In this document: piece after piece, positions 51,478 through 54,400 of the stretch | How the letters are laid out: the number at the start of each line of letters is the position of its first letter | Numbering within the stretch: the stretch's first letter is position 1 | Origin: Escherichia coli | Lineage (GTDB): Bacteria > Pseudomonadota > Gammaproteobacteria > Enterobacterales > Enterobacteriaceae | NCBI RefSeq assembly: GCF_016903815.1 | Contig: NZ_CP069973.1 | Length of the DNA: 64,000 bases | Strand: one strand, 5' to 3' | Position numbers: made by a program

Positions 51478-54400
51478 TTAATTCCACTGTGAAAACGAAT
51501 ATTTATTTTGCGTTCCCGTTTGTTTTATTTTTGTTAACATTTAATATAATTATTATTAACCTCGTGGACGCGTTAATGGCTAACTCATAATGGGTATTCA
51601 ATTGGCTGCGTTTTGTGATGTTAGTCACAGTTTTTTATCGGGTAAAAACAGGGCGTCTTTGTGTAAATATTCATTGTTTATCAATGTGATGAGTTTGATT
51701 GTGAGTAAAAAAATAGCATCTGACTTTCAATATTGGTGATCCATAAAGCAATATTGAAAATTTCTTTTTGCTACGCCATGTTTTCAATATTGGTGAGGGA
51801 CTTAACAATATTGAAAGTTGGATTTATCTGCGTGTGACATTTTCAATATTGGTGATTAAAGTTTTATTTCCAAATTAAAGGGCGTGATATCTGTAATTAA
51901 CACCACCGATATGAACGACGTTTCCTTCATGATTTCTGGAGATGCAATGAAGATTATTACTTGCTATAAGTGCGTGCCTGATGAACAGGATATTGCGGTC
52001 AATAATGCTGATGGTTCGTTAGACTTCAGTAAAGCCGATGCCAAAATAAGCCAATACGATCTCAACGCTATTGAAGCGGCTTGTCAGCTAAAGCAACAGG
52101 CAGCAGAGGCGCAGGTGACGGCCTTAAGTGTGGGCGGTAAAGCCCTGACCAACGCCAAAGGGCGTAAAGATGTGCTATCGCGCGGTCCGGATGAACTGAT
52201 TGTGGTGATTGATGACCAGTTCGAGCAGGCACTGCCGCAACAAACGGCGAGCGCACTGGCTGCCGCCGCCCAGAAAGCAGGCTTTGATTTGATCCTCTGT
52301 GGCGATGGTTCTTCCGACCTTTATGCCCAGCAGGTTGGTTTGCTGGTAGGCGAAATCCTCAATATTCCGGCAGTTAACGGCGTCAGCAAAATTATCTCCC
52401 TGACGGCAGATACCCTCACCGTTGAGCGCGAACTGGAAGATGAAACAGAAACCTTAAGCATTCCGCTGCCTGCGGTTGTTGCTGTTTCCACTGATATCAA
52501 CTCCCCACAAATTCCTTCGATGAAAGCCATTCTCGGCGCGGCGAAAAAGCCAGTCCAGGTATGGTCGGCGGCGGATATCGGTTTTAACGCAGAGGCAGCC
52601 TGGTCAGAACAACAGGTTGCCGCGCCGAAACAGCGCGAGCGGCAGCGCATCGTGATTGAAGGCGACGGCGAAGAACAGATCGCCGCATTTGCTGAAAATC
52701 TTCGCAAAGTCATTTAATTACAGGGGATGCTATGAACACGTTTTCTCAAGTCTGGGTATTCAGCGATACCCCTTCTCGTCTGCCGGAACTGATGAACGGT
52801 GCGCAGGCTTTAGCTAATCAAATCAATGCCTTTGTCCTCAATGATGCCGACGGCGCACAGGCAATCCAGCTAGGCGCTAATCATGTCTGGAAATTAAACG
52901 GCAAACCGGACGATCGGATGATCGAAGATTACGCCGGTGTCATGGCTGACACTATTCGCCAGCACGGCGCAGACGGTCTGGTGCTGCTGCCAAACACCCG
53001 TCGCGGCAAATTACTGGCGGCAAAACTGGGTTATCGCCTTAAAGCGGCGGTGTCTAACGATGCCAGCACCGTCAGCGTACAGGACGGTAAAGCGACAGTG
53101 AAACACATGGTTTACGGCGGTCTGGCGATTGGCGAAGAACGCATTGCCACGCCGTATGCGGTACTGACCATCAGCAGCGGCACGTTTGATGCGGCTCAGC
53201 CAGACGCGTCACGCACTGGCGAAACGCACACCGTGGAGTGGCAGGCTCCGGCTGTGGCGATTACCCGCACGGCAACCCAGGCGCGCCAGAGCAACAGCGT
53301 CGATCTCGACAAAGCCCGTCTGGTGGTCAGCGTCGGTCGCGGCATTGGCAGCAAAGAGAACATTGCGCTGGCAGAACAGCTTTGTAAGGCGATAGGTGCG
53401 GAGTTGGCCTGTTCTCGTCCGGTGGCAGAAAACGAAAAATGGATGGAGCACGAACGCTATGTCGGTATCTCCAACCTGATGCTGAAACCTGAACTGTACC
53501 TGGCGGTGGGGATCTCCGGGCAGATCCAGCACATGGTTGGCGCTAACGCGTCGCAAACCATTTTCGCCATCAACAAAGATAAAAATGCGCCGATCTTCCA
53601 GTACGCGGATTACGGCATTGTTGGCGACGCCGTGAAGATCCTTCCGGCACTGACCGCAGCTTTAGCGCGTTGATCCACTCTGGCAGGGCTGCATTTTGGC
53701 CCTGCCGCTGACAGGGAGCTCTTATGTCCGAAGATATCTTTGACGCCATCATCGTCGGTGCTGGGCTTGCCGGTTCGGTTGCCGCACTGGTGCTCGCCCG
53801 CGCAGGGGCGCAAGTGTTAGTTATCGAGCGTGGCAATTCCGCAGGTGCCAAGAACGTTACTGGCGGGCGTCTCTATGCCCACAGTCTGGAACACATTATT
53901 CCAGGTTTCGCCGAATCCGCCCCCGTAGAACGCCTGATCACCCATGAAAAACTCGCGTTTATGACGGAAAAGTCAGCGATGACTATGGACTACTGCAACG
54001 GTGACGAAACCTCGCCATCCCAGCGTTCTTACTCCGTTTTGCGCAGTAAATTTGATGCCTGGTTGATGGAGCAGGCCGAAGAAGCGGGCGCACAGTTAAT
54101 TACCGGGATCCGCGTCGATAACCTCGTACAGCGCGATGGCAAAGTTGTCGGTGTAGAAGCCGATGGCGATGTGATTGAAGCGAAAACGGTGATCCTTGCT
54201 GATGGGGTGAACTCCATCCTTGCCGAAAAGTTGGGGATGGCAAAACGCGTCAAACCGACGGATGTGGCGGTTGGCGTGAAGGAACTGATCGAGTTACCGA
54301 AGTCGGTTATCGAAGACCGTTTTCAGTTGCAGGGTAATCAGGGTGCGGCTTGCCTGTTTGCGGGTTCCCCCACCGATGGCCTGATGGGCGGCGGCTTTCT

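What the first reader, a model, noticed from the sequence alone, without database searches (positions are those of the whole stretch)
51725..51855. Repeated 11-bp inverted half-sites with 13-bp spacing in the caiT-fixA divergent region
TTTCAATATTG and its reverse complement CAATATTGAAA occur as two pairs with exactly 13-bp spacers (51725-51759 and 51782-51816), plus a third forward copy at 51841 preceded by GTGTGACA. This matches what I recall of CaiF activator sites for the divergent cai and fix promoters, with a possible CRP half-site.
Basis: partly seen in the sequence, partly recalled or inferred. Interest (0 to 1): 0.3.

Follow-up and report, generated by a model that had tools for sequence, protein, structure and literature searches.

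The report
Known CaiF operator of cai-fix promoters
The repeated sequences are the already-published binding sites of the carnitine-responsive activator CaiF between the E. coli caiT and fixA genes, so the finding is ordinary, but the extra unpaired copy inside the fixA promoter is conserved across many enterobacterial genera and is not mentioned in any paper I could read.

Summary
TTTCAATATTG-N13-CAATATTGAAA occurs at 51725-51759 and 51782-51816 (0 expected), and a fifth copy sits at 51841-51851. The locus is the E. coli caiT/fixA divergent spacer. All five copies are identical in K-12, and two secondary sources quote exactly this motif as the footprinted CaiF sites F1 and F2. The CaiF interpretation is therefore correct and already known.

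The "CRP half-site" reading of GTGTGACA is not supported. It scores 3 mismatches as a CRP core and would be centred at about -28.5 of fix. It is conserved only in the Escherichia/Citrobacter/Salmonella clade. It also matches the fix -35 element (GTGACA-17-TAAAGT), which a published promoter table prints as well. The real CRP cores are 51614-51629 (perfect) and weaker ones nested inside the two palindrome spacers.

The added result comes from 46 Enterobacterales spacers. The 14-nt forward element TTCAATATTGGTGA forms a phased array of 2-4 copies. Its last, unpaired copy lies in the fix core promoter in 44 of 46 spacers and is as conserved as the proximal palindrome. By position it resembles the site of GrlA, the CaiF homologue, which binds a -35/-10 spacer. 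Whether CaiF binds this copy is untested.

The parts
51725..51759 (.). Distal (cai-side) CaiF site: TTTCAATATTG-N13-CAATATTGAAA, with arms at 51725-51735 and 51749-51759
   Evidence: Exact match to the published CaiF motif. Identical arms in K-12. Present in Escherichia, Citrobacter, Salmonella, Pseudocitrobacter, Phytobacter, Intestinirhabdus, Providencia and Proteus, but absent in six outer genera.
51782..51816 (.). Proximal (fix-side) CaiF site: TTTCAATATTG-N13-CAATATTGAAA, with arms at 51782-51792 and 51806-51816
   Evidence: Exact match to the published motif. Found in almost all Enterobacterales spacers examined, with arm identity of 0.95 and 0.91 at genus level.
51841..51855 (+). Unpaired promoter-proximal forward element TTTCAATATTGGTGA, which has no reverse arm. 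It lies at about -28..-14 of the inferred fix start, inside the -35/-10 spacer.
   Evidence: Searches show the copy. Genus-level identity is 0.90 for the 11-mer and 0.93 for GTGA. It is present about 105 bp upstream of the fixA ATG in 44 of 46 spacers, 59 bp (58-61) after the previous forward element. CaiF binding here is an inference and was not tested.
51614..51629 (.). CRP site 1, a perfect core TGTGATGTTAGTCACA upstream of the cai promoter
   Evidence: It is the only perfect TGTGA-N6-TCACA in the 64-kb window. The half-sites are kept at 0-2 mismatches in all Enterobacterales spacers while the N6 varies. The published position of -41.5 from the cai start is recalled from the abstract of Buchet et al. 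1998.
51792..51807 (.). CRP site 2 core GGTGAGGGACTTAACA, nested in the spacer of the proximal CaiF palindrome
   Evidence: It is the second-best CRP core in the spacer, with 2 mismatches. Its centre at 51799.5 equals the recalled published position of -69.5 from the fix start when that start is derived from CRP1 -41.5 plus 289 bp.
51735..51750 (.). CRP site 3 core GGTGATCCATAAAGCA (weak), nested in the spacer of the distal CaiF palindrome
   Evidence: Its centre at 51742.5 equals the recalled -126.5 from the fix start. It has 4 mismatches in this allele and 3 in K-12, where 51748 is A rather than G. The sequence support is weak and the assignment rests on the recalled footprint data.
51834..51862 (+). 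fix core promoter: -35 GTGACA (51834-51839), a 17-bp spacer that contains the unpaired CaiF element, and -10 TAAAGT (51857-51862)
   Evidence: It is the only + strand promoter-like site in the spacer. The same hexamer pair is printed for fixABCX in Shimada et al. 2014, Table 1. It is consistent with an inferred start site at 51869.
51862..51869 (+). Invariant block TTTTATTT immediately downstream of the unpaired element; role unexplained
   Evidence: Genus-level identity is 0.96, against 0.42-0.55 for the six bases before it.
43821..44216 (+). caiF gene, encoding the cognate activator (131 aa)
   Evidence: The ORF is shown. It matches Pfam PF07180 CaiF_GrlA at 27.4 bits against a cut-off of 25. 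Its only solved relative is GrlA, 4KT5 chain C.
49960..51474 (-). caiT, the first gene of caiTABCDE, which is one of the two regulated operons
   Evidence: A 504-aa ORF. The K-12 annotation and 100% N-terminal identity are shown.
51947..52717 (+). fixA, the first gene of fixABCX, which is the other regulated operon
   Evidence: The in-frame ATG at 51947 is shown. The gene is annotated fixA in 5391 E. coli genomes.

Best explanation
This is the operator of the E. coli carnitine regulon. Shown or published: the CaiF/GrlA-family HTH protein CaiF, encoded at 43821-44216, binds two 35-bp sites in the caiT-fixA spacer. Each site is TTTCAATATTG-N13-CAATATTGAAA. Together with cAMP-CRP, CaiF switches on the divergent caiTABCDE and fixABCX operons when a carnitine-derived signal (crotonobetainyl-CoA) is present. 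Inferred from sequence geometry plus numbers recalled from the literature: the weak CRP sites 2 and 3 lie inside the 13-bp spacers of the two CaiF sites, with dyad axes within 0.5 bp of the CaiF dyads. CRP and CaiF would then occupy the same 35 bp as a composite activator complex at about -70 and -127 of the fix promoter, while the perfect CRP site 1 (51614-51629) serves the cai promoter. GTGTGACA supplies the fix -35 hexamer and is not a CRP half-site. Inferred from comparative data obtained here: the functional repeat unit is the asymmetric forward element TTCAATATTGGTGA. It is arrayed every 57-59 bp in 2 to 4 copies, depending on the genus. The last copy, which never has a partner arm, sits in the fix core promoter between -35 and -10. 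It most likely provides a promoter-proximal contact point for CaiF, positionally like the -35/-10 spacer site of the homologue GrlA at LEE1. The upstream palindromes add CRP-assisted cooperative occupancy.
For: The motif is identical to the published F1/F2 sequence, with two exact occurrences and none expected. The locus is identified. An intact caiF of family PF07180 is present. The only perfect CRP core in the window is 51614-51629, and a 2-mismatch core lies inside the proximal palindrome. Four numbers recalled from Buchet et al. 1998 (-41.5, 289 bp, -69.5, -126.5) map without adjustment onto CRP1, onto the second-best CRP core and onto the 57-bp repeat period. Shimada et al. 2011 state that the divergent cai and fix promoters use different CRP molecules. 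GTGACA-17-TAAAGT is called by the promoter scan and printed by Shimada et al. 2014. Genus-level conservation is 0.95 and 0.91 for the proximal arms, 0.90 for the unpaired element, 0.93-0.98 for GTGA, and 0.3-0.55 for the DNA in between. The phased array of 2, 3 or 4 forward elements has a last interval of 59 bp, and its last copy is unpaired, in 44 of 46 spacers. In Providencia the forward elements persist while the reverse arms decay. GrlA is reported to bind the -35/-10 spacer of LEE1 P1.
Against: The primary footprint papers could not be read, so the CRP2/CRP3 positions and both start sites rest on my recollection of an abstract plus their fit to the sequence. Every accessible source speaks of two CaiF sites only. 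If the original probes covered the fix promoter, the unpaired copy presumably gave no strong footprint on its own. CRP3 is a poor core here, with 4 mismatches. The right half of CRP2 is at background conservation (0.38) in the outer genera, while GTGA is invariant even at the unpaired copy, where no CRP site is expected. GTGA may therefore belong to CaiF recognition rather than to CRP. The fix spacer is 17 bp, not the suboptimal 18 bp that underlies the MerR-like model for GrlA. The LEE1 spacer shows no sequence similarity to the CaiF element (8/14 matches, reached by 70% of shuffles). The E. coli -10 hexamer is not conserved in the outer genera, so the register of the unpaired element relative to RNA polymerase is uncertain there.
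Confidence: 0.85

Rival explanations
1. GTGTGACA plus the start of the third copy forms a CRP site or half-site that helps activate fix.
For: TGTGA (51833-51837) is a perfect CRP left half. The octamer is conserved within the Escherichia/Citrobacter/Salmonella clade while the bases upstream of it vary. Intestinirhabdus has a 2-mismatch core at this place.
Against: There are 3 mismatches, all in the right half, and the centre would be about -28.5 of the fix start, where CRP would block RNA polymerase rather than recruit it. Conservation is at background (0.30) in the outer genera. GTGACA sits exactly 17 bp upstream of a TAnnGT hexamer that is conserved in the same clade and is listed as the fix -35. 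The three CRP sites I recall from the literature are all accounted for elsewhere.
Confidence: 0.07
2. The third, unpaired copy is a non-functional relic of the tandem duplication that produced the repeated 57-59-bp units.
For: The units are clearly related: 51 nt at 73% identity, with period 57 and 59 bp. Unit number varies among genera, and repeat-mediated deletion does occur. The literature I could read names only two CaiF sites.
Against: A relic would decay like the surrounding DNA, which is 0.3-0.55 identical at genus level. The element is instead 0.90-0.93 identical, invariant at 10 of 14 positions, and held about 105 bp from the fixA ATG in 44 of 46 spacers from Escherichia to Proteus. 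In Providencia it is the best-preserved copy, with 0 mismatches against 1-3 for the others. The missing partner arm is missing in every genus, so the asymmetry itself is conserved.
Confidence: 0.06
3. The conserved block 51841-51869 is conserved because RNA polymerase or a factor other than CaiF reads it as a core-promoter element, and its likeness to the CaiF arm is incidental.
For: It lies inside the core promoter. The adjacent invariant TTTTATTT (0.96) is not part of any CaiF arm. Promoter spacer sequence can matter to sigma70 (PMC3130263). The spacer is H-NS-bound according to Shimada et al. 2014.
Against: The same 14-mer, TTCAATATTGGTGA, is kept at one to three other places per spacer that are not core promoters. 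The unpaired copy matches them at every invariant position in 45 sequences. RNA polymerase has no known specific recognition of a 14-bp spacer sequence.
Confidence: 0.1

Closest known systems
CaiF sites F1 and F2 of the E. coli K-12 cai-fix regulatory region (Buchet et al. 1999, as restated in PMC12083890 and PMC3680233)
   Same: The motif, number, spacing and locus are identical, and the arms are base-for-base identical to K-12. This is the same element in another E. coli strain.
   Different: There is one spacer substitution in each palindrome relative to K-12 (51748 G for A, 51799 G for A). The first weakens the CRP3-like core by one match. The accessible descriptions do not mention the third, unpaired copy or the GTGA extension.
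GrlA at the distal LEE1 (ler) promoter of EHEC/EPEC; GrlA is the other characterised member of Pfam PF07180
   Same: The regulator belongs to the same protein family. GrlA's reported target lies inside the -35/-10 spacer of its promoter. The unpaired CaiF element also lies inside the -35/-10 spacer of fix.
   Different: The LEE1 spacer is a suboptimal 18 bp and the model is MerR-like realignment, whereas the fix spacer is 17 bp. There is no sequence similarity between the two spacers. LEE1 has no upstream palindromes and no nested CRP sites in the sources read. CaiF binding at the fix spacer has not been shown.
Co-dependent activator arrangements with CRP interleaved among specific-regulator sites, such as MelR-CRP at melAB and CytR-CRP at deoP2 (from my own knowledge, not checked here)
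   Same: A CRP dimer and a specific regulator occupy adjacent or overlapping DNA, and a weak CRP site is used only in combination with the partner protein.
   Different: Here the CRP core would be nested between the two arms of a single regulator palindrome, with coincident dyads. Simultaneous occupancy has not been verified with the tools or sources available.

Membership tests
CaiF operator (F1/F2) of the cai-fix regulatory region | Sequence 5'-TTTCAATATTG-N13-CAATATTGAAA-3' | tested here: met
   Two exact matches at 51725-51759 and 51782-51816, with 0.00 expected. The motif is as quoted.
CaiF operator (F1/F2) of the cai-fix regulatory region | Located in the spacer between divergent caiT and fixA | tested here: met
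   caiT is at 49960-51474 (-) and fixA starts at 51947 (+). The spacer matches 5391 E. coli genomes.
CaiF operator (F1/F2) of the cai-fix regulatory region | Cognate CaiF regulator encoded in the same locus | tested here: met
   A 131-aa ORF at 43821-44216 matches PF07180 at 27.4 bits, against a cut-off of 25.
CaiF operator (F1/F2) of the cai-fix regulatory region | Physical protection by purified CaiF (DNase I footprint or gel shift) | not testable with these tools
   This is known only from the literature for K-12. The arms here are identical to K-12.
CaiF operator, applied to the third, unpaired copy (51841-51855) | Paired inverted arm at N13 | tested here: not met
   The sequence at the partner position matches the arm at only 4-6 of 10-11 bases, and its conservation does not follow the arm pattern. 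No reverse arm is present in any of 45 sequences.
CaiF operator, applied to the third, unpaired copy (51841-51855) | Same conserved recognition sequence as the footprinted forward arms | tested here: met
   TTCAATATTG+GTGA is invariant or nearly so at the same positions as in the 84 paired forward arms.
cAMP-CRP binding site, applied to GTGTGACA (51832-51839) | Two half-sites TGTGA-N6-TCACA with few mismatches | tested here: not met
   TGTGACATTTTCAATA has 3 mismatches, all in the right half. It is not among the 21 hits at <=2 mismatches in the window.
cAMP-CRP binding site, applied to GTGTGACA (51832-51839) | Centre at an activating position (about -41.5, -61.5, -71.5 and so on) | tested here: not met
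   The centre is at 51840.5, which is -28.5 of the inferred fix start at 51869. That start site rests on recalled published numbers and on the promoter call.
cAMP-CRP binding site, applied to GTGTGACA (51832-51839) | Conserved wherever the regulated promoter is conserved | tested here: not met
   Identity is 0.30 in the outer genera, against 0.91-1.00 for the neighbouring CaiF element.
cAMP-CRP binding site, applied to 51792-51807 (CRP2, nested) | Core match and activating position | tested here: met
   It has 2 mismatches and is the second-best core in the spacer, centred at -69.5. The position relies on the recalled start site.
cAMP-CRP binding site, applied to 51792-51807 (CRP2, nested) | Both half-sites conserved across genera | tested here: inconclusive
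   The left half GTGA is 0.98-1.00 conserved. The right half is 0.56 overall and 0.38 in the outer genera. GTGA is equally conserved at the unpaired copy, where no CRP site is expected.
MerR-like / GrlA-like activation from within the promoter spacer, applied to the unpaired copy | Regulator site lies between the -35 and -10 hexamers | tested here: met
   The element at 51841-51855 lies within the 17-bp spacer 51840-51856 of GTGACA-17-TAAAGT.
MerR-like / GrlA-like activation from within the promoter spacer, applied to the unpaired copy | Over-long, suboptimal spacer (18-20 bp) that the activator corrects | tested here: not met
   The spacer is 17 bp, whereas LEE1 P1 has 18 bp.
MerR-like / GrlA-like activation from within the promoter spacer, applied to the unpaired copy | Demonstrated binding and spacer-dependent activation | not testable with these tools
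   This needs footprinting and promoter mutagenesis.

The most novel reading that the evidence does not exclude
The unpaired forward element in the fix core promoter (51841-51855) is a genuine third CaiF contact site that has not been described. Together with the proximal palindrome it would form the ancestral, minimal CaiF operator: six genera have only these two. CaiF would act there from inside the -35/-10 spacer, as its homologue GrlA does at LEE1. The asymmetric 14-mer TTCAATATTGGTGA, arrayed every ~59 bp, would be the true recognition unit rather than the 11-bp symmetric half-site. The distal palindromes would be lineage-specific amplifications gained and lost by repeat-mediated recombination.
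Probability: 0.3. Interest if true: 0.4.

Novelty: already known. Interest (0 to 1): 0.22.

Why it matters
The finding as stated re-identifies a textbook-level regulatory element, so it changes nothing. The extra result is of modest, specialist value. CaiF-based carnitine biosensors are built on "the fix promoter", and their design assumes two symmetric sites. If the promoter-embedded unpaired element and the GTGA extension are real determinants, they become obvious targets for tuning sensor range. They would also link the mechanisms of CaiF and the virulence regulator GrlA, whose DNA recognition remains poorly defined. The genus-level variation in copy number, and the repeat-mediated 116-bp deletion in 2 of 5426 E. 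coli genomes, show how such operators expand and collapse.

Tried and rejected
(1) I tried to read the primary papers (Buchet et al. 1998 and 1999, Eichler et al. 1996) by PubMed id, PMC id and DOI; none is held. Four further full-text searches found no paper that restates the CRP and start-site coordinates or mentions a third CaiF site.

I had no curated matrix available and did not want to invent one, so I used transparent mismatch counts to TGTGA-N6-TCACA with shuffles instead.

(3) I tested whether the sequence 13 bp after the unpaired copy is a degenerate reverse arm. It matches only 4-6 of 10-11 bases, and the conserved TTTTATTT does not follow the arm pattern, so I rejected this.

(4) I tested whether the GrlA target spacer at LEE1 resembles the CaiF element. 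It does not: 8/14 matches, reached by 70% of shuffles.

(5) I looked for the motif in Shewanella cai-fix spacers. It is absent. Those spacers carry a different palindrome and no ORF for a regulator.

(6) I checked the other exact or near copies in the window (9150, 8886, 43919). All are in coding sequence and unpaired, so they are not part of the system.

(7) I considered strict helical phasing between the cai-side CRP1 and the nearest palindrome across genera. By my own arithmetic from the positions printed, the distances range from about 96 to 135 bp with no common phase. Only the fix side has a fixed architecture.

(8) I did not run protein structure prediction, because the tools cannot model protein-DNA complexes and it would not bear on the question.
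Full report
**1. Observation**

TTTCAATATTG lies on the + strand at 51725, 51782 and 51841, and its reverse complement lies at 51749-51759 and 51806-51816. At up to one mismatch the window holds 10 copies against 2.26 expected, and none of 100 dinucleotide-preserving shuffles reaches 10. The complete 35-nt pattern TTTCAATATTG-N13-CAATATTGAAA occurs exactly twice, with none expected even when three mismatches are allowed. GTGTGACA is at 51832-51839, one base before the third copy.

Three refinements follow:
- The forward copies extend to TTTCAATATTGGTGA(T/G), repeated three times at intervals of 57 and 59 bp. The first two whole units are 73% identical over 51 nt.
- Each arm contains the self-complementary octamer CAATATTG. 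The core centres within one site are 21 bp apart, about 2.0 helical turns.
- The one other exact 11-mer in the window (9150-9160) lies inside a 428-aa ORF, is followed by CCGC and has no partner, so it is incidental.

**2. Identity of the locus**

The repeats lie in the 472-bp spacer between a 504-aa ORF on the - strand (49960-51474) and an ORF on the + strand whose ATG is at 51947. This spacer matches 5391 of 5426 complete E. coli genomes, where the downstream gene is annotated fixA. In K-12 MG1655 the flanking genes are caiT and fixA. All five copies are base-for-base identical in K-12. The window also encodes an intact 131-aa CaiF at 43821-44216. It matches Pfam PF07180 (CaiF_GrlA) above the curated cut-off, and its only solved relative is GrlA, 4KT5.

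**3. Comparison with the literature**

I could not obtain the primary footprinting papers. Two independent secondary sources restate their result:
[quoted passage not shown] That pattern occurs only at 51725-51759 and 51782-51816, so these are F1 and F2. The sources I read do not say which is which.

**4. CRP sites and the GTGTGACA question**

A scan for TGTGA-N6-TCACA finds one perfect core in the whole 64 kb, at 51614-51629. A 2-mismatch core, GGTGAGGGACTTAACA, lies at 51792-51807, inside the spacer of the proximal CaiF palindrome.

CRP site 1 is centred at -41.5 of the cai start. The two start sites are 289 bp apart. CRP sites 2 and 3 lie at -69.5 and -126.5 of fix.

Applied to the sequence, these numbers place the cai start at 51580 and the fix start at 51869. 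They place CRP2 at 51799.5, exactly on the second-best core in the spacer. They place CRP3 at 51742.5, on GGTGATCCATAAAGCA, which has 4 mismatches here and 3 in K-12. The two predicted centres differ by 57 bp, which is the repeat period, and each lies within 0.5 bp of a CaiF palindrome dyad (51799.0 and 51742.0). This fit makes the recollection credible but does not replace the source. Shimada et al. 2011 independently state that the divergent cai and fix promoters are served by different CRP molecules.

- It has three mismatches, all in the right half, and would be centred at -28.5.
- GTGACA-17-TAAAGT (51834-51862) is the only + strand promoter-like site in the spacer.
- The same hexamer pair is printed for fixABCX in Table 1 of Shimada et al. 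2014.
- Its conservation falls to background outside the Escherichia/Citrobacter/Salmonella clade.

GTGTGACA is therefore best read as the fix -35 region.

**5. Comparative footprint**

A scan of one genome per species returned 63 fixA loci. The divergent caiT-fixA arrangement is present in 57 of them, from Escherichia to Proteus, Providencia, Cedecea and Shewanella.

Findings in the 46 Enterobacterales spacers analysed (the window, K-12 and 44 of the scanned loci):
- The proximal palindrome lies at about -165 of the fixA ATG nearly everywhere.
- The distal palindrome is present only in Escherichia, Citrobacter, Salmonella, Pseudocitrobacter, Phytobacter, Intestinirhabdus, Providencia and Proteus.
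- Proteus has three palindromes.
- Pluralibacter, Atlantibacter, Trabulsiella, Cedecea and two unnamed Enterobacteriaceae have only one.

Genus-level identity to the window:

| Feature | Identity |
|---|---|
| Proximal palindrome arms | 0.95, 0.91 |
| Unpaired third copy | 0.90 |
| GTGA after the forward arms | 0.93-0.98 |
| TTTTATTT (51862-51869) | 0.96 |
| DNA between these features | 0.3-0.55 |

Scored as a 14-mer, TTCAATATTGGTGA forms a direct-repeat array of 2, 3 or 4 copies. The last interval is 59 bp (58-61). The last copy never has a reverse arm, and it lies about 105 bp upstream of the fixA ATG in 44 of 46 spacers. The two exceptions are Entomohabitans, which has no such copy, and Serratia H1w, which has a single element at -272.

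In Providencia the reverse arms decay while the forward elements persist, and the unpaired copy is the best preserved. The empirical motif is an invariant 10-mer, TTCAATATTG. Forward arms add GTGA (81-100%), and reverse arms read on the bottom strand add TT.

Within E. coli, the 166-bp site region is at least 95% identical in 5384 of 5390 genomes.

**6. Mechanism**

Published: CaiF, activated by a carnitine-derived CoA ester, and cAMP-CRP co-activate both operons.

Inferred here:
- CRP2 and CRP3 are nested in the CaiF palindromes, so the two proteins must share each 35-bp site. CaiF would sit on the outer 10-mers and CRP on the GTGA...CA core between them.
- The invariant GTGA is also present after the unpaired copy, where a CRP site would be centred at -10.5 and makes no sense as an activator site. 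The right half of CRP2 is not conserved in the outer genera. GTGA may therefore be part of CaiF recognition, or serve both proteins.
- The unpaired element occupies about -28..-14 of fix, inside the 17-bp spacer.

The only other characterised member of the family, GrlA, is reported to bind the -35/-10 spacer of the distal LEE1 promoter and to act in a MerR-like manner. It also occurs as a single subunit in the GrlR2-GrlA complex. This positional parallel makes a lone, asymmetric CaiF site inside a core promoter plausible.

The parallel has limits. The fix spacer is 17 bp, not 18. I confirmed the LEE1 spacer sequence in O157:H7, upstream of ler, and it shows no similarity to the CaiF element. 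No accessible source reports a third CaiF footprint.

From memory, Buchet et al. 1998 also reported that a 50-bp segment overlapping the fix start is required for cai transcription. That would fit a functional element here, but I could not verify it.

**7. Rival readings**

- A neutral duplication relic is contradicted by the conservation data.
- A pure RNA-polymerase element is unlikely, because the same 14-mer is conserved at non-promoter positions in the same spacers.
- A CRP half-site reading of GTGTGACA fails on match, position and conservation.

**8. Verdict**

The element is already known.

The modest new content is comparative. There is a minimal conserved architecture of one palindrome plus an unpaired forward element in the fix core promoter. 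The recognition unit is asymmetric and extended by GTGA. Unit number varies by lineage. A repeat-mediated 116-bp deletion occurs in 2 of 5426 E. coli genomes.

Noticed in passing
window 51600-51715: There is a hypervariable patch between CRP site 1 and the distal CaiF palindrome. It is roughly 40% diverged between this strain and K-12, although the flanks are identical or nearly so. Every Escherichia lineage examined has its own version, and only the CRP1 half-sites and a few short islands are kept. The window-type allele is found in about 650 of 5426 E. coli genomes; the rest are too diverged for blastn to detect with this 116-nt query.
   Followed up: partly
L066 1250-1606 (E. coli strain C6), equivalent to window 51725-51840: A precise 116-bp deletion has its endpoints in the identical 16-mers TTTCAATATTGGTGAT (first forward element and unpaired copy). 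It removes both CaiF palindromes and the fix -35. The junction is present in 2 of 5426 genomes, C6 and 2014C-3655. The pattern fits repeat-mediated recombination or slippage. An assembly artefact was not excluded.
   Followed up: partly
window 51862-51869: TTTTATTT is invariant across genera (identity 0.96), while the E. coli -10 hexamer just upstream (TAAAGT) is not conserved in the outer genera. It may be an ancestral -10 (TATTTY). In that case the unpaired CaiF element would overlap the -35 position there.
   Followed up: partly
window 43919-43929 (inside caiF, 43821-44216): A one-mismatch copy, TTTCGATATTG, lies within the caiF coding sequence. In context it reads ATTTCGATATTGAAC, close to the compact 14-bp palindrome TTTCAATATTGAAA. 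It could be chance or an autoregulatory site.
   Followed up: no
L041 1950-2190, L045 2085-2165 (Shewanella caiT-fixA spacers): Shewanella keeps the divergent caiT-fixA arrangement with a spacer of about 1 kb. In the one spacer whose ORFs were listed (L041) there is no plausible gene. The spacers have no CaiF motif and instead carry arrays of a different palindrome (TATTAG...CTAATA). This suggests a different regulator or a different specificity.
   Followed up: partly
window 51549-51592: There are two different candidates for the cai core promoter. The scan and Shimada et al. 2014 list TTAACG-16-AATAAT (51576..51549). The recalled CRP1 position of -41.5 implies a start at 51580 with a -10 of CATTAT (51592-51587) and no -35, as expected for a class II CRP promoter.
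   Followed up: no
CRP1 position in L006-L062: Outside Escherichia and Pseudocitrobacter, the CRP1 left half is almost always TGTTA or TGTAA rather than TGTGA, while the right half TCACA is kept.
   Followed up: no
window 51904-51920 (- strand): A terminator-like hairpin with a weak T tail is called in the fixA 5' leader on the opposite strand. It is probably a chance consensus match: 1 found against 0.2 expected.
   Followed up: no
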